Source of the DNA: a virus
Reading direction: 5' to 3' (one strand)
IMG/VR virus record: IMGVR_UViG_3300040801_002731
Span: 70,972-106,503 of that record
Length of the DNA stretch: 35,532 nucleotides
In this document: positions 5,766 through 35,532 of the stretch, one piece after another
How positions within the stretch are numbered: position 1 is the first letter of the stretch
Layout of the letters: each line of letters starts with the position of its first letter
The notes under the pieces: model-generated
What the model was told of the DNA's origin: nothing
Database searches by the model: none
The model's input: only the letters and a program-made list of their open reading frames with translations
Program-made: the position numbers and the translations under genes

Positions 5766-6229
5766 TACTGGAGCGCCTTTCTCACTTCGGAAACGATGTC
5801 TGCGACCATGTGGGGAGCGCGCTCGTTGAAGGCGCGCTCCAGGAACTTGCCGCCCACGTCCGGCCCTTTGGCCTTGGATGCCGGCCCCTTCTCGAACGCG
5901 CCGGAACCGTAGGGCGCCAGCCCCTCGTGCATCTGCACCGCGTAGACGTCGACATCAACGCCATCAACCACGCCGCCGACGTTGACCAGCACCGCCAGGC
6001 GGCGGTTGTCCTCATAGAACCGTTCGGCCCGGATGGAGCGCTCCAGTTCGCGCCGAGGCGGATCCTGTCGGCTCTGGCCCTTGTAATCGACCGGCGCCAG
6101 GTCTCGCGCCCGACTGGCGATGCGCTCGCCCTCCCGCTTGATCTGCTCACGCGCCCGACGCACGGCCCTGGGGCCGCCCTGGCGCAACAACAACATCAGC
6201 TCGCCGGTGCCCTTGACCTTCATGCCCAT
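5765..6229 (-). CDS. HK97 gp10-like neck/tail completion protein
   Basis: ARDLAPVD...LERSI...YAVQMHEG...KFLERAF pattern; synteny. Confidence 0.75.
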   Translation of the reverse strand: MGMKVKGTGELMLLLRQGGPRAVRRAREQIKREGERIASRARDLAPVDYKGQSRQDPPRRELERSIRAERFYEDNRRLAVLVNVGGVVDGVDVDVYAVQMHEGLAPYGSGAFEKGPASKAKGPDVGGKFLERAFNERAPHMVADIVSEVRKALQ

Positions 6230-6594
6230 CAGGTCGTCTCCTCAGCAGTGACGATGTTGCAGTCGACCTGATAGTGATCGAGCCGACCGATGACGGCGAT
6301 GCGAGGCTGAACATCGACGACCTTGAGGGTCCGACCCTCGGCGACGATCATGTCGCCCAGGGCGATGTCGTAGAGCGGACGAAACAGCAGTCGGGCATCC
6401 GCCGTGATCTCATCGGCATTGCCGCGACTGGCTGAGCTGTCGGTGCGCACGCTGGTCTGATCGACCCCGAAGGTGAGCTTGACGATACCGCACAGCGCGT
6501 CGACCGGCGGCGCATAGCCATCCTCCGGCTCGCCGTAGACATTGAAGCTAGGGATGCGCTTGCGGATCTGGCACGGGCGATTGGGCAGGAACAT
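6229..6594 (-). CDS. Head closure / head-tail joining protein
   Basis: 121 aa, beta-rich (NVYGEP, GDMIVAEGRTLKV); overlaps both neighbours by 1 nt. Confidence 0.65.
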   Translation of the reverse strand: MFLPNRPCQIRKRIPSFNVYGEPEDGYAPPVDALCGIVKLTFGVDQTSVRTDSSASRGNADEITADARLLFRPLYDIALGDMIVAEGRTLKVVDVQPRIAVIGRLDHYQVDCNIVTAEETT

Positions 6595-7361
6595 CAGACC
6601 CCCTCGGGCCGTGCCAGCACGGCCTCACTGTTTGGATGAAACACCTCGTCGCGGACCTCCTCGTAGGTCGGAAGGTCGACGTTTGGTGCCAGGGTGATTT
6701 CGGCGCCTTGCCAGCGCGAACTGGCGTCGGGGTGAACGATGCGCGCCCGGTCGATCCGCTGCTCCGACAGGCTCGCCATGACGACCTGGTTGTAGGTCTC
6801 CAGCAGGGTGCCGCGAACGACGGTGCGCACGAACTTCTGGCTGGGCCACTTCCGATTGCTGCGATCCTTGAAGTAGAACCGAAGCTCGTCGCCGTGGCGC
6901 AGGCGATACTGCATCTGCGCGGCATTACGGCTGATCGCCTGGGCGCGAGCGGCCGCCTCGGACACCAGGGCGGCCGAACGCAGCCGCTGCATCATGTGCG
7001 CGACGTCGCGCTCAATCTGCACTGTGATTTCGACAAGGGCGTAGTGCGAAAACGCGCTCAGAAGCTCACCGGTGCGCGCCGCGTCACTGTCAGCACCCAG
7101 AGCAGCGCTCGCGTCGAGAAGCGCATCCCTGCGCGCTCTCAGCGCGATGGACGCGAAGGCTTCGTCGAGCAAAGCCTCCTCCGTCTTCAGAAAAGACCGG
7201 GCAACGGCATACGCCTGATCCTTCAGGCTTTGAGCGGCGCGCGGCGTGGCAAAATCGCCGCCGGCAAGAGCCTGGGCATAAAGGCCGCGCCAGGTCATCA
7301 CCATCGAAAGATATCGGGCTCCCGCAGCTTCGGCAGCGGCCGTCAGATCATTGCCGATCAT
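6594..7361 (-). CDS. Hypothetical virion morphogenesis protein
   Basis: 255 aa, coupled to neighbours inside the head module, C-terminal FHPN. Confidence 0.6.
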   Translation of the reverse strand: MIGNDLTAAAEAAGARYLSMVMTWRGLYAQALAGGDFATPRAAQSLKDQAYAVARSFLKTEEALLDEAFASIALRARRDALLDASAALGADSDAARTGELLSAFSHYALVEITVQIERDVAHMMQRLRSAALVSEAAARAQAISRNAAQMQYRLRHGDELRFYFKDRSNRKWPSQKFVRTVVRGTLLETYNQVVMASLSEQRIDRARIVHPDASSRWQGAEITLAPNVDLPTYEEVRDEVFHPNSEAVLARPEGV

Positions 7362-25121: not shown

Positions 25122-25207
25122 TCCGGGTGGCGGGAGTCGAACCCGCACACTCTCTTTGAGCATCCGATTTTTAAGATCGGCGCGTCTACCAATTCCGCCA
25201 CACCCGG
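25122..25207 (-). tRNA. tRNA-Leu(UAA), no encoded CCA
   Basis: Acceptor stem CCGGGTG/CACCCGG plus discriminator A; D-arm GCG-GAATTGGTAGA-CGC; anticodon arm CCGAT-CTTAAAA-ATCGG; long variable arm; T-arm GCGGG-TTCGACT-CCCGC. Confidence 0.93.
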
Positions 25208-25367: not shown

Positions 25368-28300
25368 ATGCAGTTAGGCGAGATTTTAGAGAACTACCGC
25401 ACCGCCTCGACCAACGAGCGCGAGAAGGGTGAATATTTCGAGCGCTTGGTTCGCGTGTTCATCACCAATGATGACATCCAGAAGCAGTTCTACTCCGCCG
25501 TCGTCCCCTTCGCTGAATGGGCAAAGCAACAGGGCTGGAGCAATGCGGACACCGGGATCGACCTGGTGGCCACCCTTGCGGACGGGTCGGGGTATGCGGC
25601 CATCCAATGCAAGTTCTACGCCCCCAACCATGTGATCCAGAAGCCCGACATCGACAGCTTCATTTCTGCGGCCTCGAATGACCTCTTCACCCGCCTGATC
25701 ATCGCGGACACCACCCGGAAGGACTTCGGGCGCAACACCAAGGAAACCCTGGACAAGCTCTCGAAGGACTGGAACCGGATCGGTATCAATGAGCTTGAGG
25801 CCAGCCGGATCGACTGGTCGCAATTCATCCGCACCGGCAACGTCACCCTGGCCCCCAAGAAGCAGCTTCGGGATCACCAGCGGGATGCGCTGACAGCCGT
25901 CACGGAAGGTCTGGCTGAGGCAGATCGCGGCAAGCTCATCATGGCTTGCGGAACCGGCAAGACCTTCACCGCCCTGCGGGTCGCCGAGACCATAGCAGGC
26001 AAAGGCAAGCACGCGCTCTTCATGGTCCCGTCGCTGGCGCTGATGTCTCAGACCGTGCGCGAGTGGAAGAACGACTGTCAGGAAGAGTTCACGGCCTTCT
26101 CAGCCTGTTCGGACATCAAAGTCGGGCGCAACGCCGATGCCGATAGCCTTGATCTGAATGTCCATGACCTCGCCTTCCCGGCCACGACAGACCCGGAAAA
26201 ACTGGCCCGCCAGGTCAAGGATGCGCCTGCGGACAAGATGACAGTGGTCTTCTCGACCTATCATTCCATCGACGTTCTGACGCGCGCGCAAAAGAACCAC
26301 GGCCTGCCCGAGTTCGATCTGGTGATCTGCGACGAGGCGCACCGGACCACAGGCGTTACCCTGAAGGATGAGGATGACAGCAACTTCGTCCGCATCCACA
26401 ACAACGACTATGTGAAGGCTCGAAAGCGCCTCTACATGACGGCCACCCCCCGCATTTTTGGGGACGCTGCGCGCCGCAAGGCCGATGACCATGAGGCCGA
26501 GCTGGCCTCGATGGATGACGAGACCAAGTTTGGCAAAGACCTGTTCCACCGGGGATTTGGCTGGGCCGTCGAGAATGAACTGCTGACCGACTACAAGGTC
26601 GTGGTGCTCGCCGTGGATGAGGGGCTGATTTCCAGCACCATTCAGAGCCGCCTCAAGGAAGGCGCGGAACTGACCCTGGACGACGCCACCAAGATCATCG
26701 GATGTTACAAGGCCCTGACCAAGAGTGACCTCAAGGGCGATCTGACCTTCGATCCGCAGCCCATGAAGCGCGCGCTGGCCTTCTGCCATAGCATCAAGAA
26801 GTCTCTGGTGATCAAAGAGGAGTTTACCCGCGTTGTCGATGAATACACCGGCAACGACTTCTTCGGTGACGCGGCGCCTCTGCACACTGAGGTGCGCCAT
26901 ATTGACGGCAGCTTCAACTCCAGCGCCCGAGAAGAAATGCTGAACTGGCTCAAGGCCGATGCAGGCGATGATACCTGCCGCATCCTGACCAACGCCAAGG
27001 TATTGTCCGAGGGCGTGGACGTGCCGGCCCTCGACGCCATCATGTTCATGCACCCACGCAAGAGTCAGATCGACGTGGTGCAATCTGTGGGGCGCGTCAT
27101 GCGCCGTGCGGAAGGCAAGAAGCTCGGCTATGTGATCCTGCCAGTGGCTATCCCGCCCAACACAAAGCCCGAGGACGCCCTGAACGACAACGAGCGGTAT
27201 CAGGTTGTCTGGCAAATCCTGAACGCGCTCCGTGCCCATGACGAACGCCTCGACGCTCGCATCAACCAGGCCGAACTGGGCGAGGATATCAGCGACAAGA
27301 TCGAGCTGGTGCGCATCTCATCCAATACAGAGCTGAGAGAGCTGACCGCTGTGGTCGATGACTTCGCCACGAGCAAGACCAAGGCCGAGAAGACGGGCGC
27401 AGGCATTGGGCAGGAGAGCCGAGAGCGGCGGACCTATGGCGAGCCGGATGCTCAAGGGTCTTTCGTCTTCGACGAGTTCACCCGCGCCATCATGGCCAAG
27501 ATCGTCCAGAAGTGCGGAACCCGCGAATACTGGGATTCTTGGGCCAGAGACATCGCCAAGATTGCCCAGACACATATCACGCGCATCACCACCATCGTCG
27601 GCCAGCCGGGGGCTGAACGAGACGCCTTCCTCGCCTTCCTCGAAGAGCTACAGGACGACCTGAACCCCTCGATCACCGAGGCCGAGGCCATCGAGATGCT
27701 GGCGCAGCACCTCATCACGCGCCCGGTCTTTGACGCTCTGTTCAAGGGCAGCCAGTTCACCAGAGCGAACCCCGTCTCGTGTGCGATGGAGACGGTGCTT
27801 GGGCAACTCCACCAACACAATCTCGCCAAAGAGGCGGAGAGCCTCGCCAAGTTCTACGCCAGCGTCGAACGCCGCGCTGCCGATGTGGTGACAGCCCACG
27901 GGCGGCAGGAGCTGATCTACAAGCTCTATGACAGCTTCTTCAAAGGGGCCTTTCCGGTTCTGACGCAGCGGCTTGGCATCGTCTACACGCCGGTCGAGGT
28001 GGTGGATTTCATCATCCATTCGGTCAATGACGTGTTGAAGGCGCAGTTCGGCCAGACCCTCGGGGCCGAGGGTGTTCATATCCTCGACCCCTTCACCGGC
28101 ACCGGCACCTTCATCACCCGGCTACTGCAATCTGGTCTGATCGCGCGCGAAGAGCTGGCGCACAAATACCGGAAGGAAATCCACGCCAACGAGATCGTCC
28201 TGCTGGCCTATTACATCGCCGCCATCAACATCGAGACGGTCTATCACGAGCTGATGCAGGGCGCGCTGTCGGAGGACGCGCCCTATGAACCCTTCAAAGG

Positions 28301-30260
28301 CATCCTGCTGACCGACACCTTCCAGATGTATGAGCAGGAGCGCGACATGGTGGCGAACCTGCTGCCGGACAACTCCGAGCGCCGGACGCACCAGAAGGCA
28401 CTGGACATCCGCGTCATCATCGGCAACCCGCCCTATTCGGCGGGGCAGGGCAGCGCCAACGACAATGCTGCGAACCTTGCCTATCCACGACTAGATGCCG
28501 CCATCCGCGACAGCTACGTCGCGCACTCCACCGCCACTCTCAAGAATTCTCTCTATGACAGCTACATCCGGGCGATCCGATGGGCGTCGGACCGGATCGG
28601 TGATGCAGGTGTCATGGCCTATGTCACCAATGCAGGCTGGGTGGACGGTAACGCCACCGACGGCCTTCGTAAATGTCTGGCGGACGAGTTCAGCGACCTC
28701 TATGTGTTCCATCTTCGGGGCAACCAGCGCACTTCTGGCGAGTTGTCTCGCAAGGAAGGCGGCAAGATTTTTGGCTCTGGCAGCCGCGCGCCGATTGCGA
28801 TCTCTGTTTTCGTCAAGAATCCCGCGGCCACCGAGCATGGGCGCATCCATTTCCACGACATCGGCGATTATCTCGACCGGAAGCAAAAGCTGGCGATTGT
28901 GCGAGATTTCGCATCTATCGACGGCATCACCGCCGCCAAGGGTTGGCAGCGCATCGCCCCCGACGAGAACAACGACTGGCTGGACCAAGTGGATCGGAGT
29001 TTTGACAGCTTTATACCAATCGGGAACAAGTCAAATGGGGAAGAGAAATCTGTTTTCTATAATTACTACAATGGTATAAAGACGGGTCGGGACGTCTGGT
29101 GCTTCAATTCATCTGCAACCCGTGGTTTTGAAAACGCTTGTCGCATGATCGACGTCTACGAGCGTGAAAGGCAACGGTATGCCGAGAGTGATGGAAACCA
29201 AGACGTCGAAGACTTCGTTGACAGTGACCCGCGCCAAATAAGCTGGAACAGGATTGCCCGGCAGAAGCTTGCGCGTAATATCTCCCTGCGCCACCAAGAC
29301 GTGCGGGCTTTTCAAAACATATATCGGCCATTCTCGCCACAGCAAGCAAACCTGCTTCTTGAGATCAGCGATCTCGTAACACTGTTCAGGCGGGCTTTCC
29401 CGACGGGTGGTCAAGACAACCTTGTGATTGATGTGTCGGGCGTTGGTTCAAAGTCTTTCACATCGCTGATGTTCAGTCGCCCGCCAAGCTTCGATGCGGT
29501 GGAAAAAGGCCAATGCTTTCCCCTCTACCTCTACGAAGAAACCCAACCCGATGAGGGCCTCTTCGCCACAGGTGGAGATCAGGCAAGCGGCCTGACCCGA
29601 CGCGACGCCATCACCGATGCAGGTCTCGCCCATTTCCAAGCCTCCTATCCGGGGCAGGAGATCACCAAGGAAGACCTGTTCTATTACATCTACGGTCTGC
29701 TCCACTCCCCCGAATACCGCGACCGCTATGCCAACAACCTCGCCAAAGCCCTGCCACGCATCCCGGCAGTCCGCACCTATCATGACTTCGCCGCCTTCCG
29801 TGACGCAGGCCGCGCCCTGGGCGATCTGCATGTGAACTTTGAGTCCGTCGCGCCCTACATGGTGACCTTCAAGGAAGGCGATCACGCCCTCATCAACGAG
29901 GCGCAGGATGACCCCGTGAAGTTCTACCGCGTCACCAAGATGAAGTTCGGCGGCAAGGGCAAGGGGAAGGACAAGACCACCGTCATCTACAACGGCAACA
30001 TCACCATGCAGAACATTCCGCTGGAAGCCTATGACTATGTAGTCAACGGCAAACCTGCGCTGGAATGGGTGATGGAACGGCAGGTGGTGAAGCAGGACAA
30101 GGACAGCGGCATTGTGAACGACGCGAACGATTACGCCAACGAGACGGTGGGCGATCCGCGCTATCCGCTCGATCTATTCCGCCGCGTGATCACCGTGAGC
30201 CTGGAGACCATGCGGATCGTGAACAGCCTCCCAGCACTCGACATTGAAGACCCAAAGTGA
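25368..30260 (+). CDS. Type ISP restriction-modification enzyme (LlaGI/LlaBIII-like)
   Basis: Mrr-like nuclease (GIDLVA...AIQCKFY), SF2 helicase (MACGTGKT, DEAH, MTATP, QSVGRVMR), N6-adenine MTase (LDPFTGTGTF, GNPPY) and a C-terminal TRD. Confidence 0.95.
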   Translation: MQLGEILENYRTASTNEREKGEYFERLVRVFITNDDIQKQFYSAVVPFAEWAKQQGWSNADTGIDLVATLADGSGYAAIQCKFYAPNHVIQKPDIDSFISAASNDLFTRLIIADTTRKDFGRNTKETLDKLSKDWNRIGINELEASRIDWSQFIRTGNVTLAPKKQLRDHQRDALTAVTEGLAEADRGKLIMACGTGKTFTALRVAETIAGKGKHALFMVPSLALMSQTVREWKNDCQEEFTAFSACSDIKVGRNADADSLDLNVHDLAFPATTDPEKLARQVKDAPADKMTVVFSTYHSIDVLTRAQKNHGLPEFDLVICDEAHRTTGVTLKDEDDSNFVRIHNNDYVKARKRLYMTATPRIFGDAARRKADDHEAELASMDDETKFGKDLFHRGFGWAVENELLTDYKVVVLAVDEGLISSTIQSRLKEGAELTLDDATKIIGCYKALTKSDLKGDLTFDPQPMKRALAFCHSIKKSLVIKEEFTRVVDEYTGNDFFGDAAPLHTEVRHIDGSFNSSAREEMLNWLKADAGDDTCRILTNAKVLSEGVDVPALDAIMFMHPRKSQIDVVQSVGRVMRRAEGKKLGYVILPVAIPPNTKPEDALNDNERYQVVWQILNALRAHDERLDARINQAELGEDISDKIELVRISSNTELRELTAVVDDFATSKTKAEKTGAGIGQESRERRTYGEPDAQGSFVFDEFTRAIMAKIVQKCGTREYWDSWARDIAKIAQTHITRITTIVGQPGAERDAFLAFLEELQDDLNPSITEAEAIEMLAQHLITRPVFDALFKGSQFTRANPVSCAMETVLGQLHQHNLAKEAESLAKFYASVERRAADVVTAHGRQELIYKLYDSFFKGAFPVLTQRLGIVYTPVEVVDFIIHSVNDVLKAQFGQTLGAEGVHILDPFTGTGTFITRLLQSGLIAREELAHKYRKEIHANEIVLLAYYIAAINIETVYHELMQGALSEDAPYEPFKGILLTDTFQMYEQERDMVANLLPDNSERRTHQKALDIRVIIGNPPYSAGQGSANDNAANLAYPRLDAAIRDSYVAHSTATLKNSLYDSYIRAIRWASDRIGDAGVMAYVTNAGWVDGNATDGLRKCLADEFSDLYVFHLRGNQRTSGELSRKEGGKIFGSGSRAPIAISVFVKNPAATEHGRIHFHDIGDYLDRKQKLAIVRDFASIDGITAAKGWQRIAPDENNDWLDQVDRSFDSFIPIGNKSNGEEKSVFYNYYNGIKTGRDVWCFNSSATRGFENACRMIDVYERERQRYAESDGNQDVEDFVDSDPRQISWNRIARQKLARNISLRHQDVRAFQNIYRPFSPQQANLLLEISDLVTLFRRAFPTGGQDNLVIDVSGVGSKSFTSLMFSRPPSFDAVEKGQCFPLYLYEETQPDEGLFATGGDQASGLTRRDAITDAGLAHFQASYPGQEITKEDLFYYIYGLLHSPEYRDRYANNLAKALPRIPAVRTYHDFAAFRDAGRALGDLHVNFESVAPYMVTFKEGDHALINEAQDDPVKFYRVTKMKFGGKGKGKDKTTVIYNGNITMQNIPLEAYDYVVNGKPALEWVMERQVVKQDKDSGIVNDANDYANETVGDPRYPLDLFRRVITVSLETMRIVNSLPALDIEDPK

Positions 30261-30352
30261 CCAGCACCGTAGCGGGCCGGTTTGGGTCACCGTGAACGAC
30301 TGAGCCCGTGGTGCAAAACAATCGCCCACGAGGAACTACGTCTGCGGCCCTC

Positions 30353-30440
30353 GGCCCTCCAAGGATGGACCGGGGGCAGCGCGTGGCTCTCCAAGGATGG
30401 ATTGGGTGCGACGCCCGGCTCTCCAAGGACGAATTGGGGG
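30353..30440. repeat. Three direct repeats with an exact 32-bp period and CCAAGG core
   Basis: GGCYCTCCAAGGAYGRAYYGGG at 30353, 30385 and 30417. Confidence 0.85.
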
Positions 30441-30819
30441 TGTGGTGAGCGATGGCGGCATCCGGGTCGTCAAGACGCATTTTCGCTAGGACATCGTATC
30501 GTTTCGCGTTCGCACTATCGCATGACGCGCACGCTATCGCGAAGCGCGAGCGTTTCACTTGCGAGACGTGTTGTTGCGAATGCGTTTCGTCTTGCTCGTG
30601 CGCGCGTCTTGTTCGCTTTCGTAACATTGCGACCGCGACATATTCAGCGTTCGCAACAATGCGACATTGATGCAACAGCATGTGTTGCATAAACGACATA
30701 GCGTTTAAACGCTCACAGAAGCGCGCACAAGCGCGAGTCTGTTTTGCGGTATCTGGTGCCCTATCAGATTCGCTTGCGCGTCTGTGACGCGCTATAGCGT
30801 GATTTGTGGACTATCTGAC

Positions 30820-30856
30820 AAAAGGGAAAAGGCCGGACCATTGCGGCCCGGCCTTT
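30820..30856 (-). terminator. Intrinsic terminator
   Basis: AAAGGCCGGGCC-GCAAT-GGTCCGGCCTTT followed by TCCCTTTT. Confidence 0.8.
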
Positions 30857-30863
30857 GTTGCGT

Positions 30864-31514
30864 TTACACTGCGAAACGATTCGCCAGATATTCGGCGAAG
30901 TCGTTTTCATTTATAGTGTAGTATTCACGATTCATGTCGTCTTTGGCTTTTGTCCAGAAGCCAAAAGTAACCAAAGCCGACATTGCGGGGCTTCCCTGTC
31001 CGTTTGCCGTTCCCTGACTTGCGTTATTTCGCTTAAACAAGCGACACAACTTTGCATCAAGTGTCAACTTGTCAGAAACGCTTGCAAGCCCATAGTGATG
31101 ATAAAACGTGATCCCCTCTTTCTTTGCCACAAGCGCATTGTGGATAATTGCGCTTGCATGTTTGTTGATTGCGCTAACACTATCGAAAGCGCAAGCCACG
31201 CCAATATTTGCGCAATATTTCATTGCGTAAACATTATATCGCGTGCCGGCCTTGACTTGACGGTTCACAAAGTCGGCCGGAATGTTTGCAGCGATGCAAG
31301 CGCGTGCAAACGAGACTTTCGACATTTGCGCCAGATTCGCTTTCAAAGTATCCTGAATGTTTGCGTTTCCAGGATCCTTTGTCGTTTCATACTCTTTGCG
31401 CGCTTCCATTTGCTGGACAAGCGCGCTTGTCCACTCTTTCGCTTGTTCGTCAGTGATAGACTGGACGGAAGCGATGAAAGAGGGAATGTTTGCGTTGGTG
31501 GTCTTGCGTGCCAT
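30864..31514 (-). CDS. Hypothetical protein, 216 aa (cassette 1), lower GC
   Basis: AAGGA RBS, own leader and terminator; basic protein, possibly DNA-binding. Confidence 0.85.
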   Translation of the reverse strand: MARKTTNANIPSFIASVQSITDEQAKEWTSALVQQMEARKEYETTKDPGNANIQDTLKANLAQMSKVSFARACIAANIPADFVNRQVKAGTRYNVYAMKYCANIGVACAFDSVSAINKHASAIIHNALVAKKEGITFYHHYGLASVSDKLTLDAKLCRLFKRNNASQGTANGQGSPAMSALVTFGFWTKAKDDMNREYYTINENDFAEYLANRFAV

Positions 31515-31599
31515 TGTCTTGTTTCCTTGTTTGTGTGTTTGCGTTGTTTTTCCAAACGCAACAGCTTTTTCATTCTGTGCGCGTTCGGTTTTTTCACAA

Positions 31600-31641
31600 T
31601 GTCAAAGAGCGTATCGCGTTGTTTGTTTTGTCGTTCGCGAT
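31600..31641 (-). promoter_or_regulatory. boxB-like stem plus boxA-like antitermination sequence
   Basis: ATCGCG-N17-CGCGAT followed by CGCTCTTTGACA (rrn boxA consensus is TGCTCTTTAACA). Confidence 0.55.
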
Positions 31642-31669
31642 GACTCTTTTTTACTGGATTTCCCAAAAG

Positions 31670-31687
31670 TCAGTCAATCCTGATTTA
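31670..31687. promoter_or_regulatory. Operator copy overlapping a minus-strand TTGACT -35
   Basis: TCAGTCAATCCTGATTTA. Confidence 0.75.
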
Positions 31688-31893
31688 TCAAAAAAATTTT
31701 TTGCTGAAAAAACAGCATGTTAGAAAGCGCGAAAGCGCGATATCGCGCTTTCTCGAAAGAGCGAAAGAGCGAAAGCGCGACGACTCGAATCGTCGATTCG
31801 CGCACATTAGAATGATTGAATATGCAGACTCTGATTTGAGTCGTTTCGCATTGCGAACGGCTTTGACGCAAGCGCGTATAGTTAAGAATCGTT

Positions 31894-31989
31894 CTTATAT
31901 GTGTTTTTGCTTATATGCACAGTCTCTTATATGCACAGTCTCTTATATGCAGAGTTTCTTATATACGACGTTTCTTATATACGACGTTT
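31894..31989. repeat. Six tandem 16-bp repeats with CTTATAT core
   Basis: CTTATATGTGTTTTTG, CTTATATGCACAGTCT x2, CTTATATGCAGAGTTT, CTTATATACGACGTTT x2. Confidence 0.92.
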
Positions 31990-32031
31990 CTAAATTAGAT
32001 CCGTCTAATATGCGCCCGCTGCCCCACAACC

Positions 32032-32224
32032 CCATGGGATTCCGCCCATGGCCGTTCCCATGGCCGTTCCCATAGGCGCGTGCCCCTAGCCTTTCCCCTT
32101 GGAAACTGCCACGGAGCCTCACCCACGCGCAACCCCTGAGCCGTTCCCTATGGGTGTGCCGGCGCCGCTCCCATGCGCACGACCGAGGACGACGCCGAGG
32201 CGCTCCCCTTGGCACACACCAAGC
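32032..32224. repeat. Phased CCNNGG-type array
   Basis: CC at nine consecutive 12-bp steps from 32123 to 32219; CCATGG at 32032, 32046 and 32058. Confidence 0.85.
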
Positions 32225-32228
32225 GCAT

Positions 32229-32259
32229 GAGAAAGGGGAGCGCCCTCGACGCTCCCCTT
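32229..32259 (-). terminator. Terminator-like hairpin
   Basis: AAGGGGAGCG-N7-CGCTCCCCTT followed by TCTC. Confidence 0.65.
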
Positions 32260-32295
32260 CCCCGCTCTCGATCTACGTCCCGGAGCAGCGTGCGA

Positions 32296-32616
32296 TCACA
32301 GCTTGCCCGAAGCGAGCGCTTTGCGGAGCGCTTCAGCTTCCCGACGCTCCTCACGTCTGATCTGTGCGAGACGCTTCCGTTCGTGCGCCCGTTCGCGCTT
32401 CAGCTCATGGGCGCTTCGCATCATGTCGGCGGGCGCGTGATCGTAACCCAGCTTCTTCAAAGCGGGCTGGACGCGCTTCTCCGCGAAAAATTCAAGATGA
32501 GCGAAAGCGCGTTCGCGAAGGGAAGCGTCTTTCGCGTCACACGCCGCGAGCGCAAGCTCGGTCATGTCGGTGAGAAGGGAAACAGCGCGATCATAGCTCG
32601 GAGTGTTGGCAGACAT
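32296..32616 (-). CDS. Hypothetical helical protein, 106 aa (cassette 2)
   Basis: AAGGGAG RBS; start re-called to MSANTP. Confidence 0.75.
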   Translation of the reverse strand: MSANTPSYDRAVSLLTDMTELALAACDAKDASLRERAFAHLEFFAEKRVQPALKKLGYDHAPADMMRSAHELKRERAHERKRLAQIRREERREAEALRKALASGKL

Positions 32617-32699
32617 TTTGTTCTCCCTTGTCTGCGTTGCTGACAAGTAGAGTGTCGCGCTTTGCTGTTGGGTCTGCTTCCGGGAGATGAGCGGCAACT

Positions 32700-32890
32700 G
32701 AGCCGGGCGTGTCCACGGCGGATCTGTATGGAACAGCCCGGCCGAGAAGCCATGGACGGCCGGGAATGGCCTGACCCCTATGGACCGGCCTCGGCCTGAT
32801 GGACGTGGACCTGGCTATGGCGGCCTGGGATCGGAGAACCCCTTGGCCTGGCCTACATGGACCGGACCACGGGCTTGTCCTTGGGCGTTC
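32700..32890. repeat. CCNNGG/GGCC-dense spacer (looser phasing)
   Basis: CCNNGG at 32713, 32750, 32789, 32824, 32841, 32867 and 32879. Confidence 0.65.
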
Positions 32891-32898
32891 TCATGCGC

Positions 32899-32925
32899 GA
32901 GAGAGCGCGTCCGAAGACGCGCCCT
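32899..32925 (-). terminator. UUCG hairpin, terminator-like
   Basis: GCGCGTC-TTCG-GACGCGC followed by TCTCTC, just after the stop codon. Confidence 0.65.
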
Positions 32926-32931
32926 AAGCTC

Positions 32932-33300
32932 CTAGCTGAACACCTCTGCAAGCTCTCCACTCAGCTCCACTAGATACTGATACGCTTCTTGCGAAAAGCC
33001 GATGAGCGCTCCGTTCTCTCTGTCAATGCGTGTCGCTTCGAGTGCGAAATCATAGAGCGCAAAAAAACTATATCGTTTGTCAGCGAAACGACATCTCACC
33101 ATATCTGTTGAAACTCCTCTAATGATTCCTTCTTTAACGATTTTCGTTTTCACTTTGCGCGCTATATCAACTTCCAAGACAGTTTCCTCTTGCTTGTTCA
33201 TAACAAGCACAGAAAAAGTCGTTATGGACGTAGCATCGTCAATGAGCGTGCTCTCGGACTCGACGACTTGCGCGAAGAAAGCGATATCGCTGATTTTCAT
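32932..33300 (-). CDS. Hypothetical protein, 122 aa (cassette 3)
   Basis: GGAG RBS; start re-called to MKISD; contains no Pro or Trp. Confidence 0.78.
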   Translation of the reverse strand: MKISDIAFFAQVVESESTLIDDATSITTFSVLVMNKQEETVLEVDIARKVKTKIVKEGIIRGVSTDMVRCRFADKRYSFFALYDFALEATRIDRENGALIGFSQEAYQYLVELSGELAEVFS

Positions 33301-33390
33301 TGTTCGCTCCATTGCTTGTCTGTTCGCTTCATCGCGAACAAGTAAACAGTAGAGCGTTGTTTGTGGACTTCAGGTAGGAAGAAGCATGGA

Positions 33391-33520
33391 CCGAGGTGGG
33401 AAGATTTGCGGGTTTTCTCTTGGAGATTTCCTCGGTCGACGCGCCGGCGTTTTCCCTTGGCCGGCACCTTGGGCGTTCTCAGCGCAAGAAGAAAAGGCGT
33501 GCCCTTGAGCACGCCCTTGA
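33391..33520. repeat. Phased CCNNGG-type array
   Basis: TCTTGG 33418, CCTCGG 33430, CGCCGG 33442, CCTTGG 33455 and 33467, CCTTGA 33503 and 33515. Confidence 0.7.
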
Positions 33521-33616
33521 GTGTTCAAGCGGCGAAGAGGATGAAGTAGATCCCCAGAACCCCGAACATCATCAGCAGGCCGAGGAACTCTCCGGCCCAT
33601 CGGGCAATTTCTCGGA

Positions 33617-33817
33617 TCATGACAGGCACTCCCCGCGGCAGGCGTTGAGGTCTCGGTCGAGGTCTCGGAGCAGGACGCTGCGGGGATCGTCTCGGCCGAT
33701 CTGCGGGAACGTCTCGACGCCCGAGGCGTCGATCACGGAGTAGACGAGACGGGTGAGGTGCCGGGAGAGGCGATAGATGCGGCCCGATGGGGAGAAGTAT
33801 TCTCGCACGACAGTCAT
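33617..33817 (-). CDS. Hypothetical protein, 66 aa (cassette 4)
   Basis: Leader TGTCAGCAACG...AAAGGGAAC is shared with cassette 2; start re-called to MTVVREY. Confidence 0.6.
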   Translation of the reverse strand: MTVVREYFSPSGRIYRLSRHLTRLVYSVIDASGVETFPQIGRDDPRSVLLRDLDRDLNACRGECLS

Positions 33818-33901
33818 GAGCGTGTTCCCTTTGCTCGTTGCTGACATGCTCATGCTCGCGTTTTCAGATTGGGGTCTCGGCTGGGTTGTTCTGCGGTTGT
33901 T

Positions 33902-34003
33902 GGTCGGCCGGTGCCTTGGGGCGCTCTATGGGCCGGGCCAGGGAAGTCTTCTCGGCCGGCACTCTGGGCATATCCTCGGACAGCCCCTTGGGGCATGTCA
34001 TGC
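33902..34003. repeat. Phased CCNNGG-type array
   Basis: Eight consecutive 12-bp registers (33902-33986) have GG at hexamer positions 5-6; four are full CCNNGG. Confidence 0.8.
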
Positions 34004-34005
34004 GT

Positions 34006-34032
34006 GAGAGTGCAGCGGGCTGCTGCACTCTC
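34006..34032 (-). terminator. Hairpin after the cassette 5 stop
   Basis: Perfect 11-bp stem GAGAGTGCAGC-N5-GCTGCACTCTC; no clear U tract. Confidence 0.5.
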
Positions 34033-34039
34033 TGCGGGG

Positions 34040-34291
34040 TTACGCTGCTTCGTCGTCAAGCGGGTCGTCGAGCAACGCGACGATCTCGTCGTTGGCGCGC
34101 TGCATCAGAACGAACAGCTCGTTGGGCGTCAGCGTCTCGTCGTGACGTTCGATGCTGTAGATTAGACGCTCGGCGTTCGTCATTTTGACAACAGCGGCGA
34201 TCTTGTCGCTGTCTTTCTTGTAAATCTTGACTTCGGCTTCGTCGTTGGTCATGTCGTAGTCAACAGCGAAAGTGTAATTTGTCTGGTTCAT
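34040..34291 (-). CDS. Small acidic hypothetical protein, 83 aa (cassette 5)
   Basis: Start re-called to MNQTNY; Asp/Glu-rich, with no Gly or Trp. Confidence 0.78.
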   Translation of the reverse strand: MNQTNYTFAVDYDMTNDEAEVKIYKKDSDKIAAVVKMTNAERLIYSIERHDETLTPNELFVLMQRANDEIVALLDDPLDDEAA

Positions 34292-34452
34292 GGCTCTCTC
34301 GTTTGTTTGGTTGTTTGTTCGCTTCGCTGCGAACAAGTAGACTTTACGCGCGCAACTTCGGGGAACAGACTGGCATATTTATGCGATCTGCGGCGGGGCT
34401 GCGCGCGGGCGTGGGCTTGTCGGTGATATAGCGGGCATGGGCCTGGGGTTGC

Positions 34453-34720
34453 CCTTGGCATTGTCCATGGAATTTCCCATGCGAACCGCCAACACGCCGG
34501 CCATGGGAGTTCCCAGAGCAGAGCCCACGGACCTGCCCATGCGAGAGACCGAGGAGGGCGCCAACACGCCGGCCATGGGAGTTCCCTCGGCGATGCCCTT
34601 GGATGACACCGTGGGCCGGGCCGCGGCACGGCGCGTAGGCAAGGCCATGGCCGTTCCCAGAGGTCACCCCTGAGCCGTTCCCTATGGGATACCTGCCTGC
34701 CCGTGGCCTTTCCCTATGGG
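34453..34720. repeat. Longest phased CCNNGG-type array (12-bp period)
   Basis: 19 of 20 consecutive 12-bp registers from 34453 to 34681 begin with CC, and 11 are full CCNNGG. Confidence 0.92.
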
Positions 34721-34788
34721 CGCGCCAAAAAGATGCCCGACTGGACGAACCAGCCGGGCGAGTTCATGGCATCGCAAATCGAAAAGGG

Positions 34789-35079
34789 TCAGGCGAGGCT
34801 CTTCCAGGAGAACTGGAAGCCATTGCCGAAGATCGTGAGGCGCGCCGGGAGGCTCCTGCCGTCGGGCATGGTCAGCGCCGGAGTTATGCTTGTCTTGATC
34901 TCCCGGTGTCCGATGCCGTGCTGGGCGAGGAGCGCGCGGACCATGTTGATCGCGTGCTGGGGGTCGGCGGCGCTTTGGCTGGGGATGAGCCGCGGGAGGT
35001 CGTGCTTGACCGTCTCCAGGATGTCGTAGCCGCTCGGGCCGTAGAAGAAACAGGCCCCGTCGAGCTTGAAGTAGGACAT
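34789..35079 (-). CDS. Hypothetical protein, 96 aa (cassette 6)
   Basis: Start re-called to MSYFKL; leader TAACAGACTCATCG resembles that of cassette 1. Confidence 0.68.
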   Translation of the reverse strand: MSYFKLDGACFFYGPSGYDILETVKHDLPRLIPSQSAADPQHAINMVRALLAQHGIGHREIKTSITPALTMPDGRSLPARLTIFGNGFQFSWKSLA

Positions 35080-35186
35080 GACGCTCTCGCCTCGTGTCGT
35101 TGTCGATGAGTCTGTTATCGCGCACCAGGTTTGGGGACGCGGCTGGGAACGCAGAGGATTGAGCAGCGCTGTCGGGGCACGAAAGC

Positions 35187-35258
35187 GCGTCACAGAGCGC
35201 GACCGGGGCGTTCTGCTGTCGAGCTACGCTGCGCGTGACGGATCGCGCTCTGTGACGC
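35187..35258. repeat. 16-bp perfect inverted repeat (long hairpin)
   Basis: GCGTCACAGAGCGCGA-N40-TCGCGCTCTGTGACGC. Confidence 0.8.
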
Positions 35259-35532
35259 TCTAAGAGCGATTCAGCGACAGCCAAATCACGCGAGAAAGCG
35301 ATAGCGCGAGTGCGCGTGTTCGCGCTTGGGCGAAGGCCAGAGGCCAGCGGACCAGAGACCTCGGCCTGGAGGCCGTGGACGGCCGGACCCTCATGGACCG
35401 GCCTTCAGGCCATGAACCGGAGGACCTATCATTCCGAGTGGGTTTTGGCGGTTCGAGGGCCGAGGGCTTTTCCTCGCCCTGGAGCGAAATCATGAAAATT
35501 GGGGATCTGGAATTGTAAGGCGCCCCTTGGCA

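What the first reader, a model, noticed from the sequence alone, without database searches (positions are those of the whole stretch)
30820..35130. Train of six monocistronic small-gene cassettes with related leaders
Seen: all six genes are on the minus strand, each with its own leader, and four have a 3' hairpin. The leaders form related pairs. Cassettes 3 and 5 share TACTTGTTCGC...GAAGCGAACA.ACAA after TACTGT/TAAAGT -10-like hexamers. Cassettes 2 and 4 share TGTCAGCAACG...AAGGGA. Cassettes 1 and 6 share TAA..AGA(G/C)TCATCG. Established: arrays of small independently promoted genes typify early host-takeover/anti-defence regions and plasmid leading regions. Inference: these unknown proteins are anti-defence candidates.
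Basis: partly seen in the sequence, partly recalled or inferred. Interest (0 to 1): 0.7.

Follow-up and report, generated by a model that had tools for sequence, protein, structure and literature searches.

The report
Orphan-gene cassettes with portable leaders
A phage-plasmid from a microbial mat carries a row of small self-contained genes, each started by the same reusable promoter-plus-hairpin module that related phage-plasmids put in front of quite different genes; what the genes do is unknown, and nothing found here ties them to anti-defence.

Summary
Six minus-strand genes each have their own leader. All six, not four, end in a strong 3' hairpin. Cassette 4 is bicistronic, and the train runs past the contig end.

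The three "leader pairs" are versions of one module that recurs in about 20 related phage-plasmids of the pLM21S1/RHEph10 group. It consists of a GC-TAnAnY -10 box, 4-5 nt, a TCATCG or TTGTC core, a stem-loop whose 3' arm changes in step with its 5' arm, an A/C-rich tract, a Shine-Dalgarno site and the ATG. CCNNGG clusters lie upstream and a GC-rich hairpin follows the stop codon.

The genes behind this module are unrelated from one relative to the next. C3 and C6 found no relative in billion-scale searches, C2 found one, and C4 and C5 none among the relatives. Cassette 1 is different: a conserved winged-helix DNA-binding protein, and the only cassette whose promoter carries the genome's dispersed palindromic operator.

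My best reading is a hypervariable accessory-gene region built from portable regulatory cassettes, closest to the PeSL cassettes of T4-type phages and to morons. The hairpin is probably a 5'-terminal mRNA stabiliser. No transcript data could be obtained. The anti-defence reading is untested, and the plasmid leading-region analogy does not apply.

The parts
30828..30856 (-). C1 intrinsic terminator (13-bp stem followed by a T-tract)
   Evidence: -23.7 kcal/mol, z -3.7
30864..31514 (-). C1 gene, 216 aa. Divergent short-form member of a conserved phage-plasmid protein family; helical N-terminal domain plus C-terminal winged helix.
   Evidence: Homologs. Alignment A3. AF2 model pLDDT 91. Best structural match Z 9.1 over residues 111-216. 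Tree.
31515..31689 (-). C1 promoter and leader. Operator-like palindrome 31670-31689 overlaps the -35-like TTGACT (31672-31677). -10-like TAAAAA at 31648-31653. TCATCG core at 31638-31643. Stem ATCGCG/CGCGAT at 31613-31641. A long A/C-rich 5' UTR ends in AAGGAA.
   Evidence: (z -4.1). The operator scores 12.1 bits when left out of training.
31723..31991 (.). Repeat block between C2 and C1: six 16-nt tandem repeats TCTTATATGCACAGTC (31893-31991) and seven 8-nt GAAAGCGC repeats (31723-31789), next to an A/T-rich tract.
   Evidence: (D1, D2)
32032..32212 (.). CCNNGG-type array upstream of the C1 control region
32229..32265 (-). C2 3' hairpin (16-bp G/C-rich stem, then CUUUCUC)
   Evidence: -40.1 kcal/mol, z -2.9
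32296..32616 (-). C2 gene, 106 aa, basic. One 58%-identical homolog was found, on a 1.2-kb contig.
32617..32700 (-). C2 promoter and leader: C-rich box, -10-like GACACT (32651-32656), core TTGTCAGCAACG (32635-32646), stem CTTGTC/GACAAG (32627-32647), GGGAG site.
   Evidence: (z -2.1)
32713..32884 (.). CCNNGG-type array between the C3 hairpin and the C2 promoter
32901..32926 (-). C3 3' hairpin (10-bp stem, UUCG loop, weak U-tract)
32932..33300 (-). C3 gene, 122 aa, low GC. No relative found at E <= 0.001 among 1.84 billion representative proteins.
33301..33351 (-). C3 promoter and leader: -10-like TACTGT (33346-33351), stem TTGTTCGC/GCGAACA (33321-33341), GGAG site.
   Evidence: D3; z -3.1; z -3.4
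33391..33472 (.). Short CCNNGG-type cluster upstream of C3
33493..33518 (-). Terminator of the C4/C4b unit
   Evidence: z -3.3
33525..33620 (-). C4b, a 31-codon hydrophobic ORF overlapping the C4 stop codon by ATGA
   Evidence: third-position GC 0.74
33617..33817 (-). C4 gene, 66 aa, third-position GC 0.82
33818..33900 (-). C4 promoter and leader: C-rich box CCCAGCCGAGACCCCAA, -10-like GAGCAT (33852-33857), core ATGTCAGCAACG (33836-33847). No convincing 5' hairpin.
   Evidence: (z -1.0)
33914..33991 (.). Short CCNNGG-type cluster upstream of C4
34006..34032 (-). C5 3' hairpin (11-bp perfect stem, no U-tract)
   Evidence: -26.8 kcal/mol, z -4.2
34040..34291 (-). C5 gene, 83 aa, acidic (pI 4.2, net charge -11). 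Predicted as four beta-strands followed by one helix.
   Evidence: (pLDDT 77)
34292..34346 (-). C5 promoter and leader: -10-like TAAAGT (34341-34346), stem TTGTTCGC/GCGAACAA (34315-34336), A/C-rich tract, GAGAGAG site.
   Evidence: D3; z -4.0
34442..34706 (.). Longest CCNNGG array. Eleven of its 13 sites share one 12-nt register.
   Evidence: positions; register worked out by hand from them
34735..34759 (-). C6 intrinsic terminator
34789..35079 (-). C6 gene, 96 aa, third-position GC 0.92. Only itself was found in the 5.8-billion-cluster search.
35080..35147 (-). C6 promoter and leader: C-rich box CCCAGCCGCGTCCCCAA (35131-35147), -10-like GATAAC (35114-35119), core TCATCG (35104-35109). No 5' hairpin.
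35359..35530 (.). CCNNGG-type cluster at the window end, upstream of C6. The contig stops here.
   Evidence: record linear, 96% complete

Best explanation
This is the hypervariable accessory-gene region of an alphaproteobacterial phage-plasmid of the pLM21S1/RHEph10 group. It lies between the two paralogous winged-helix genes that this family carries: the long form C7, cut by the contig end, and the short form C1.

Each gene sits in a self-contained expression cassette built from one portable regulatory module:
1. A cluster of CCNNGG sites.
2. A promoter with a C-rich upstream box and an alphaproteobacterial-type -10 box (GC-TAnAnY).
3. After 4-5 nt, a conserved start region (TCATCG or TTGTC).
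4. In C1, C2, C3 and C5, that start region forms the 5' arm of a stem-loop at the very 5' end of the transcript.
5. An unstructured A/C-rich tract with a Shine-Dalgarno site.
6. A short ORF.
7. A GC-rich hairpin or terminator directly after the stop codon.

Inferred mechanism:
- The host RNA polymerase starts at the core.
- The 5'-terminal stem-loop and the 3' hairpin protect a short monocistronic mRNA from 5'-end-dependent RNase E/RppH attack and from 3' exonucleases.
- The open A/C-rich leader gives efficient translation.
- The terminator insulates each unit from its neighbours.
- The shared 60-90-nt modules also give the homology at which unrelated ORFs can be swapped in and out. This would explain why the cargo differs in every relative.

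C2-C6 carry no copy of the genome's dispersed operator, so they are most likely expressed from the resident plasmid-prophage, as morons are. C1 does carry the operator and is a DNA-binding regulator or maintenance protein, not an effector.

Shown here: the anatomy, the family-wide conservation of the module, the co-variation of the hairpin arms, the unrelatedness of the cargo, and the fold of C1. Inferred: the start sites, the stabilising role of the hairpins, recombination at the modules, the timing of expression, and every cargo function.
For: Context:
- Phage structural genes plus ParA and ParB.
- C1-family homologs on Rhizobium phages of 115-122 kb and on non-mobilizable plasmids of 116-119 kb, including pLM21S1 (PMC4447125, PMC7969092).

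The module is family-wide:
- I curated 33 leaders from this genome and 14 related records. They share the -10 box (A at position 2 carries 1.8 bits, with a C just upstream), the spacing and the core.
- TTGTCAGCAACG with at most one mismatch occurs 27 times against 5 for the reversed control, and the copies cluster on one strand near the C1-family gene.

The hairpin:
- Mean z is -1.69 over the 33 leaders, and 17 have z below -1.5. The stems start within a few nt of the first base of the core.
- Each 5' arm pairs better with its own downstream sequence than with that of other leaders: -7.28 against -5.61 kcal/mol, and 0 of 5000 permutations reach the observed mean.
- The arms differ in sequence: TCGAAAG/CTTTCGA, ATCGCG/CGCGAT, TTGTTCGC/GCGAACAA, CTTGTC/GACAAG, TCAGCG/CGCTGA. 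Loops range from 4 to 18 nt.

3' hairpins follow all six stop codons here and nearly all cassette ORFs in the relatives.

Cargo:
- Cassette ORFs other than the C1 family are mutually unrelated singletons.
- C3 and C6 find only themselves in billion-scale searches. C2 has one homolog.
- C5 has no convincing match in 12 complete relatives. C2-C6 have none in the related loci.

The operator is present only at C1.

CCNNGG clusters peak 200-400 nt upstream of the long-form gene and again just after it in 16 relatives: about 5 per 200 nt against about 1.3 in the other bins.
Against: - There is no transcript evidence. No RNA run held the stretch, and laying the contigs gave nothing.
- The E. coli-type sigma-70 scan finds no promoter on the minus strand, and the -35 region is not canonical.
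- C4 and C6, and about a third of the leaders in relatives, lack a convincing 5' hairpin. The hairpin is therefore frequent but not obligatory.
- The 33 leaders were curated by eye from a regex scan.
- Related sequences share ancestry, which inflates apparent conservation.
- Recombination at the modules is inferred from cargo diversity. No indel bounded by modules was seen between close relatives.
- That the operator is a repressor site is itself unproven.
- The contig is not closed, so the link between C7 and C6 crosses a gap.
Confidence: 0.6

Rival explanations
1. C2-C6 are immediate-early anti-defence or host-takeover proteins, made in a burst from strong independent promoters right after DNA entry, to block restriction, CRISPR or other host immunity.
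For: - The proteins are small, fast-evolving and lineage-specific.
- C5 is strongly acidic (pI 4.2) and is predicted as a compact sheet plus helix. That size and charge recall small inhibitor proteins.
- The cassettes lie at the end of a leftward block of small genes at least 10 kb long.
- A Type ISP restriction-modification gene lies next door.
Against: - No match to any known anti-defence, Pfam, NCBIfam, PHROG or PADLOC family.
- No significant fold match for C5. The atlas leads are at chance level.
- The promoters lack the dispersed operator found at many other transcription-unit boundaries. In a temperate element that points to expression during carriage, not only at entry.
- There is no relaxase, so this is not a conjugative leading region.
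Confidence: 0.18
2. The dyad symmetries in the leaders are DNA operators for a dimeric repressor that shuts the cassettes off, not RNA hairpins.
For: - The dyads sit at or just after the predicted start site, a classic operator position.
- C3 and C5 share an identical 8-bp arm.
Against: - The arms differ in sequence between cassettes of the same genome and between relatives, while pairing is kept.
- Loop length varies from 4 to 18 nt, which a dimer with fixed half-site spacing would not tolerate.
- The genome's real dispersed palindrome is a different sequence with fixed spacing.
Confidence: 0.07
3. The stretch is mainly a replication or partition control region. The winged-helix paralogs C1 and C7 bind the iterons and the phased CCNNGG arrays as an origin, centromere or silencing complex. 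On this view the small ORFs are minor regulators or incidental.
For: - C1 has a winged-helix DNA-binding domain.
- Six 16-nt tandem repeats, 8-nt repeats and an A/T-rich tract lie just upstream of C1.
- C1-family genes lie a few kb from a convergent ParA gene followed by a small ORF in Rhizobium phages and in pLM21S1.
- CCNNGG clusters flank the long-form gene in 16 relatives.
Against: - C4, C5 and C6 show strong coding signatures.
- C2 has a conserved homolog.
- DnaA boxes are at chance level.
- This reading explains the repeats but not the promoter-hairpin-terminator units.
Confidence: 0.12

Closest known systems
PeSL (promoter-early stem-loop) regulatory cassettes in the hyperplastic regions of T4-type phages (Arbiol et al. 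2010, PMC2839356; Comeau et al. 2014, PMC4122927)
   Same: Both are a repeated composite motif of promoter, stem-loop and Shine-Dalgarno site placed directly upstream of orphan genes. Both are concentrated in the most variable part of the genome and give many small independent units. In PeSLs the motif is thought to be the point of homologous exchange between otherwise unrelated sequences.
   Different: - PeSLs are AT-rich E. coli sigma-70 consensus promoters in lytic myoviruses. Here the host is high-GC and alphaproteobacterial, and the element is a temperate phage-plasmid.
- The PeSL stem-loop usually lies within or upstream of the promoter and acts as the terminator for upstream transcription. 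Here the 5' stem-loop lies downstream of the -10 box, inside the transcript, and a separate 3' hairpin terminates each unit.
- CCNNGG arrays precede the promoters here.
- Recombination and mini-circles were shown for PeSLs. Neither was tested here.
Morons of temperate phages (reviewed in Cumby et al. 2012, PMC3594210)
   Same: Each is an independent unit with its own promoter and terminator. The genes are absent from related genomes, and some differ in GC content from their surroundings: the 1-kb bin at 31001-32000, which holds much of C1, is 44% GC against about 60% elsewhere. Expression from the repressed prophage is plausible because C2-C6 lack the operator.
   Different: Classic morons are single insertions scattered between essential genes, each with its own unrelated promoter. 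Here five or more stand in tandem and share one family-specific regulatory module. Expression in the carried state is not shown.
5'-terminal stem-loop mRNA stabilisers such as the ompA 5' UTR (Emory, Bouvet and Belasco 1992, Genes Dev 6:135, as cited in PMC2948425; decay pathways reviewed in PMC3071783)
   Same: There is a stem-loop within a few nucleotides of the predicted 5' end, followed by an open leader and a ribosome-binding site. Pairing is kept through changes on both arms.
   Different: The 5' end is predicted from the distance to the -10 box, not mapped. No half-life data exist. RNase E/RppH behaviour in the unknown host is assumed.
pLM21S1 / RHEph10 group of alphaproteobacterial phage-plasmids (Dziewit et al. 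2015, PMC4447125; Pfeifer et al. 2021, PMC7969092)
   Same: Size is similar (106 kb here, 115-120 kb there). Both have ParA and phage structural genes. Both have the C1-family gene a few kb from a convergent ParA gene, a long run of small same-strand genes, and then a non-coding gap of about 1.4 kb before the C1-family gene.
   Different: Protein identity is only 25-33%. This element comes from a microbial-mat metagenome. It has at least five orphan cassettes between the long and short paralogs, where the relatives I examined have none to two, and it carries a Type ISP restriction-modification gene.

Membership tests
Moron | Own promoter | tested here: inconclusive
   A -10-like box is conserved in position across 33 leaders. 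No start site was mapped, and the E. coli-type scan finds no promoter.
Moron | Own terminator | tested here: met
   Strong hairpins follow all six stop codons. Three are canonical terminators with T-tracts.
Moron | Absent from related genomes, or of deviant composition | tested here: met
   C2-C6 are not found in related loci or records. C1 and C3 have third-position GC of about 0.5, against 0.75-0.92 for C4-C6. The 1-kb bin at 31001-32000 is 44% GC.
Moron | Expressed from the repressed prophage | not testable with these tools
   Only indirect: the dispersed operator is absent at C2-C6. No RNA data.
PeSL regulatory cassette | Repeated promoter plus stem-loop plus Shine-Dalgarno motif upstream of orphan genes in a variable region | tested here: met
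PeSL regulatory cassette | The stem-loop is the terminator or attenuator for upstream transcription and lies in or before the promoter | tested here: not met
   Here the 5' stem starts at the core, 4-5 nt after the -10 box. A separate hairpin after each stop codon does the terminating.
PeSL regulatory cassette | Recombination between motif copies produces indels, replacements or mini-circles | not tested
   Only unrelated cargo behind the same module was seen.
PeSL regulatory cassette | Occurs in T4-type myoviruses | tested here: not met
   The element has an SPP1-type portal, a tail terminator, ParA and ParB, and is kin to pLM21S1/RHEph10.
Known anti-defence proteins (Ocr/ArdA-type DNA mimics, anti-CRISPRs, anti-restriction proteins) | Sequence or fold similarity to a characterised member | tested here: inconclusive
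   No hits in Pfam, PHROGs, NCBIfam or PADLOC. Foldseek with the C5 model found nothing at E <= 0.001. Only C5 was folded, and no dedicated anti-defence library was available.
Conjugative-plasmid leading region | Relaxase and oriT on the element, with the genes entering first as single-stranded DNA | tested here: not met
   No Relaxase or TrwC match in the 96%-complete record. All six plasmid relatives are typed non-mobilizable.
5'-terminal stem-loop mRNA stabiliser | Stem-loop at the extreme 5' end of the transcript | tested here: inconclusive
   The stem starts within a few nt of the first base of the core, which lies 4-5 nt after the -10 box. The start site is not mapped.
5'-terminal stem-loop mRNA stabiliser | Structure, not sequence, is conserved | tested here: met
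   Arm-swap test: 0 of 5000 permutations reach the observed pairing energy. There are many distinct arm pairs.
Winged-helix DNA-binding proteins (C1 only) | Helix-turn-helix followed by a beta-hairpin wing | tested here: met
   AF2 model pLDDT 91. Residues 111-216 align to 2qvo_A at Z 9.1, rmsd 2.8 over 82 residues. RosR, MarR, PadR, MukF and ORC winged-helix domains score Z 7-8.5. Z values of 7-9 are common for this fold, so no subfamily is assigned.

The most novel reading that the evidence does not exclude
The unit made of a phased CCNNGG array, a promoter, a 5' hairpin leader and a terminator is a family-specific, mobile 'expression socket'. Through it, pLM21S1/RHEph10-type phage-plasmids capture and exchange foreign ORFs by recombination between sockets. 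The two flanking winged-helix paralogs (C7 and C1) bind the arrays and gate all sockets together. That would be a new, self-contained gene-capture and control system, not just a loose set of morons.
Probability: 0.15. Interest if true: 0.7.

Novelty: new variant of a known kind. Interest (0 to 1): 0.45.

Why it matters
Phage-plasmids are known to keep their phage genes and vary their accessory genes, but how new genes get in and get expressed is poorly described. This region suggests a concrete answer for one alphaproteobacterial family: a reusable regulatory cassette that makes any captured ORF an autonomous, stably expressed unit.

Such cassettes have been described for the PeSLs of lytic T4-type phages. 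I found no description of them in a temperate phage-plasmid.

Three practical points follow:
- It yields a short list of well-delimited orphan genes (C2-C6 here, and about a dozen in relatives) that can be tested for defence, counter-defence or exclusion.
- It provides a compact promoter-leader-terminator design for high-GC alphaproteobacteria.
- It provides a searchable motif for finding the variable region in new members of the family.

Tried and rejected
- RNA evidence: no RNA holder was listed for the stretch. Laying the contigs of two metatranscriptome runs from the same sample put nothing on it. This says nothing about expression.
That leader could not be compared.
- Metagenome scan with the C2 alignment: no relative found.
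- IMG/VR scan for the C3/C5 dyad (TACTTGTTCGC-N4-8-GCGAACA): six hits, five of them in unrelated low-GC phages and none with the cassette architecture. I judged them chance matches.
- IMG/VR and 5.8-billion-cluster searches with C1 alone found nothing. An alignment that included a Rhizobium-phage homolog was needed.
- blastn of the region against the phage collection: no match.
- Rfam: nothing in the cassette region, only a tRNA at 25122-25207.
- DnaA boxes are at chance level. The single perfect box lies inside the C1 ORF.
- Protein-atlas leads for C5 (CdiI, PcfJ-like, GNAT) and C3 score in the range that shuffled proteins reach. I rejected them as evidence.
- Weak Foldseek rows for C5 (Ugi, T7 Gp1.2) have E of 0.5-0.8. 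They are not evidence.
- Spacers as coding sequence with a 4-residue repeat: rejected, because third-position GC is not raised in the frames tested across two of the arrays.
- Integron-like capture: considered and dropped. The literature reports no integrase gene for pLM21S1 (PMC4447125), I did not search this record for one, and the hairpins here sit at the 5' end of units that have their own promoters.
- N4-type hairpin promoters: dropped, because loop sizes are 4-18 nt rather than 3 and the structural genes are not N4-like.

Full report
**Setting.** The window is the last 35.5 kb of a single 106,503-bp virus record. IMG/VR classes the record as linear, and CheckV puts it at 96% complete. 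It encodes a tail terminator, major capsid, SPP1-type portal and large terminase. It also encodes two ParB-like proteins, a ParA, and a 1,630-aa Type ISP restriction-modification enzyme at 25368-30260.

The only cassette protein with relatives among deposited phages is C1. Its homologs lie on Rhizobium phages of 115-122 kb (B1VFA, RHEph10 and others). They also lie on non-mobilizable plasmids of 116-119 kb in Methylobacterium, Sinorhizobium (pLM21S1), Shinella, Rhizobium and Pararhizobium. pLM21S1 and RHEph10 are described as archetypes of a group of plasmid-like prophages (PMC4447125; noted again in PMC7969092). The element is therefore a distant member of that alphaproteobacterial phage-plasmid group.

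**The observation.** All six genes are real ORFs on the minus strand, each with a Shine-Dalgarno site.
- Third-position GC is clearly coding for C6 (0.92), C4 (0.82) and C5 (0.75), and fair for C2 (0.65).
- It is uninformative for the low-GC genes C1 and C3, at about 0.5.
- Every unit ends in a strong hairpin immediately after the stop codon: stems of 10-16 bp, -20 to -40 kcal/mol, five of six with z of -2.3 to -4.2.
- Three of these qualify as canonical terminators in the scan: those after C1, C4b and C6.
- C4 is not strictly monocistronic. A 31-codon hydrophobic ORF overlaps its stop codon by ATGA.
C3 and C5 share 36 nt at 83% identity. C2, C4 and C6 align over about 90 nt, including a C-rich box CCCAGCCGnGnCCCCAA.

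**The train goes on beyond the window.**
- At the other end of the contig, an ORF running off the start (genome 3-434, minus strand) is a paralog of C1. I call it C7.
- In a tree, C7 falls inside the well-supported clade of long forms of the family. C1 lies outside that clade on a long branch.
- Long forms are 270-330 aa and only 144 codons of C7 are present. The contig is therefore cut inside C7, and about 4% of the genome is missing between C7 and C6.
- Further in, genome positions 2.3-12 kb hold only minus-strand genes. The same leader type recurs at genome 3943 and 8366.

**The leaders are one family-wide module.** An alignment of C1, C7 and a Rhizobium-phage homolog retrieved 21 IMG/VR loci, mostly on contigs of 109-121 kb. 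Upstream of the C1-family gene and of neighbouring small ORFs in these loci, the same architecture appears again and again. It runs as follows:
- a C or GC, then a -10-like hexamer TAnAnT/C;
- 4-5 nt of spacer;
- a core, either TCATCG or TTGTC(A/G);
- a stem-loop;
- an A/C-rich tract;
- GAGAG or GGAG, then the ATG.

Anchored on the hexamer, A at position 2 carries 1.8 bits, and two C-rich boxes lie about 15 and 27 nt upstream. The form GC-TAnAnC resembles, from my memory of the literature, the -10 consensus reported for Caulobacter housekeeping promoters. That is a lead, not a test. The E. coli-type scan finds nothing on this strand.

TACTTGT..., TGTCAGCAACG and TCATCG are the two core variants of one module. 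TTGTCAGCAACG with at most one mismatch occurs 27 times in 13 genomes, against 5 for the reversed control. In two records all four copies lie on one strand within 6-8 kb, near the C1-family gene.

**The dyads behave as a structure, not as a binding sequence.**
- Over 33 curated leaders the mean folding z-score is -1.69, and 17 have z below -1.5. The stems begin within a few nt of the first base of the core.
- The 5' arm is partly fixed by the core, and the 3' arm follows it. Examples are TCGAAAG/CTTTCGA, ATCGCG/CGCGAT, CATCGC/GCGATG, TTGTTCGC/GCGAACAA, TTGTCGC/GCGACGA, CTTGTC/GACAAG, TCAGCG/CGCTGA and GTCAGT/ACTGAC.
- In an arm-swap test, each 5' arm pairs better with its own downstream segment than with those of other leaders: -7.28 against -5.61 kcal/mol. 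None of 5,000 permutations reaches the observed mean.
- Loops vary from 4 to 18 nt.
- In this window C1, C2, C3 and C5 have the stem. C4 and C6 do not.
- Variable sequence and variable spacing argue against a dimeric repressor site.
- The stem lies 4-5 nt after the -10 box, which would put it at the very 5' end of the mRNA. A 5'-terminal stem-loop is known to stabilise mRNA in E. coli (Emory et al. 1992, cited in PMC2948425). 3' stem-loops impede exonucleases (PMC3071783).
- That the same happens here is inference.

**Cargo.** Behind the shared module, the ORFs other than the C1 family are mutually unrelated singletons across this genome and the relatives.
- C6 finds only itself among 5.8 billion clusters.
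- C3 finds only itself among 1.84 billion representatives by exhaustive phmmer.
- C2 has one homolog at 58% identity, on a 1.2-kb contig.
- C5 has no convincing match in 12 complete relatives.
- None of C2-C6 matches the related loci or deposited phages (C4 was not searched there).
- No Pfam, PHROG, NCBIfam or PADLOC family is hit. C6 was scanned in the wrong frame; only the Pfam scan was repeated in the right frame.
- C5 is acidic (pI 4.2). It folds, at pLDDT 77 from a single sequence, into four strands and a helix, with no significant structural neighbour.

**C1 is of another kind.**
- With a 20-sequence alignment it gives a confident model, pLDDT 91.
- Residues 111-216 are a winged helix. 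The best match is Z 9.1, followed by many MarR, PadR, RosR, MukF and ORC winged-helix domains at Z 7-8.5. This is ordinary for the fold, so no subfamily can be named.
- The family has conserved motifs, G(S/K)RYNVYA and RHTVSAxTAPTQxSSTMxAL. It occurs as a long and a short paralog in several relatives.
- C1 is also the only cassette whose promoter region holds a copy of the genome's dispersed palindrome, TCAATCAAnnTTGATTGA. The copy is at 31670-31689 and overlaps a -35-like TTGACT. It scores 12.1 bits when left out of training.
- C2-C6 score at most 8.7.
- Relatives have their own lineage-specific 18-bp palindromes.

**Spacers.**
- CCNNGG sites run at about 21 per kb in the spacers between cassettes, about 2.6 per kb in the cassette ORFs, and 5.5 per kb genome-wide (counts).
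- In the longest array, 11 of 13 sites share one 12-nt register.
- This is a family trait. In 16 relatives the density peaks 200-400 nt upstream of the long-form gene and again just after its stop codon, at about 5 per 200 nt against about 1.3 in the other bins.
- The arrays therefore belong to the cassette unit, between one terminator and the next promoter. Their ligand is unknown.
- Other findings of this scan deal with these arrays.
- Between C2 and C1 there are also six 16-nt tandem repeats, 8-nt GAAAGCGC repeats and an A/T-rich tract.

**What it most likely is.** It is a hypervariable accessory-gene region between the long and short winged-helix paralogs, expanded here to at least five orphan cassettes. 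The relatives I examined have none to two.

Each cassette is an autonomous unit made from a portable module. I think the 5' stem-loop and the 3' hairpin stabilise a short mRNA, the terminator insulates it, and the shared 60-90-nt modules supply homology for swapping cargo. Because C2-C6 lack the operator, expression from the resident plasmid, as with morons, is more likely than a repressor-controlled early burst. That step rests on the unproven assumption that the palindrome is the prophage repressor's site.

**Comparison with what is known.** The nearest described thing is the PeSL of T4-type phages. PeSLs are repeated promoter-plus-stem-loop motifs upstream of orphan genes in hyperplastic regions, shown to mediate modular shuffling (PMC2839356, PMC4122927).

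The logic is the same, but several features differ:
- the phage type and the promoter type;
- the position and probable role of the stem-loop;
- the presence of a separate terminator;
- the upstream arrays.

Recombination was not tested here. The units also meet the structural definition of morons (PMC3594210), but they stand in tandem and share one module. They are not a plasmid leading region: no relaxase was found, and the relatives are non-mobilizable.

**Verdict.** The anti-defence interpretation is neither supported nor excluded. The regulatory module and its family-wide reuse are the substantive result. I rate it a new variant of a known kind, of moderate interest.

The main weakness is the lack of any transcript data and of a close relative in which to see shuffling directly.

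Noticed in passing
window 31893-31991 and 31723-31789: Six tandem 16-nt repeats (TCTTATATGCACAGTC) and seven 8-nt GAAAGCGC repeats containing a palindrome, beside an A/T-rich tract. They lie in a 44%-GC stretch just upstream of the C1 control region and look like iterons or a centromere. More GAAAGCG-type copies lie at 35292-35317, upstream of C6.
   Followed up: partly
window 34442-34706, 32032-32212, 32713-32884, 35359-35530; L009 (genome) about 1000-1500: CCNNGG-type sites held in a 12-nt register in the spacers. The same clusters flank the long-form C1-family gene in 16 related loci, so they are a family trait tied to the cassettes.
   Followed up: partly
L009 (genome) 3-434, minus strand: C7 is the long-form ortholog of the C1 family and is cut by the contig start. 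The record is linear and 96% complete, so the two contig ends are not joined. Reading across the ends as if the record were circular gives a stop after 14 codons, which is probably meaningless.
   Followed up: yes
L009 (genome) about 1700-2200: A non-coding stretch full of short (A/C)AGAG(A/C)-type motifs such as ACAGAGC, CCAGAGG and ATAGAGC. Similar AGAG-rich tandem repeats lie upstream of the long-form gene in relatives.
   Followed up: no
L009 (genome) about 1490-1620, minus strand: A canonical terminator (AGCCCGGCC...GGTCGGGCTTTTTT) follows about 110 nt with no convincing ORF, and a TTGACG box lies upstream. This may be a small RNA gene.
   Followed up: no
window 33525-33620, minus strand: A 31-codon hydrophobic peptide (FLGLLMMFGVLGIYFILFAA) overlaps the stop codon of the 66-aa C4 by ATGA, a layout typical of translational coupling. 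It could be a small membrane toxin, holin-like or exclusion module.
   Followed up: no
window 35184-35261: A 19-nt inverted repeat, 95% complementary with 40 nt between the arms, lies upstream of the C6 promoter. It may be the 3' structure of a unit lost in the assembly gap.
   Followed up: no
window 25122-25207 (minus strand) and 25368-30260 (plus strand): A tRNA gene and an apparently intact 1,630-aa Type ISP restriction-modification enzyme (Mrr-like nuclease, helicase, methylase, specificity domain) lie between the ParA operon and C1. In Rhizobium phages and pLM21S1 that interval holds small hypothetical genes instead.
   Followed up: partly
L002 (RHEph10) 5847-6737: The annotated CDS gp142 of RHEph10 is in a different frame from the ORF that is homologous to the C1 family (tblastn match at 6001-6537). 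The deposited annotation there is probably a shadow ORF of this high-GC genome.
   Followed up: partly
L014, L017, L018, L025, L027, L028, L029: Relatives carry their own dispersed 18-bp palindromes, either TAAGTCAnnnnTGACTTA or TAAGTAAnnnnTTACTTA, in place of this genome's TCAATCAAnnTTGATTGA. In three of four loci checked one lies within about 50-200 nt of the short-form C1-family gene's leader (L025 and L029 upstream, L017 inside the leader); L023 has only a degenerate one. Whether a C1-family protein is the operator-binding repressor is open.
   Followed up: partly
window 30352-30429: A 32-nt tandem repeat (2.4 copies, each with CCAAGG) lies between the end of the Type ISP gene and C1. The 169-codon ORF at 30190-30699 that covers it shows no coding-type GC pattern.
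   Followed up: no
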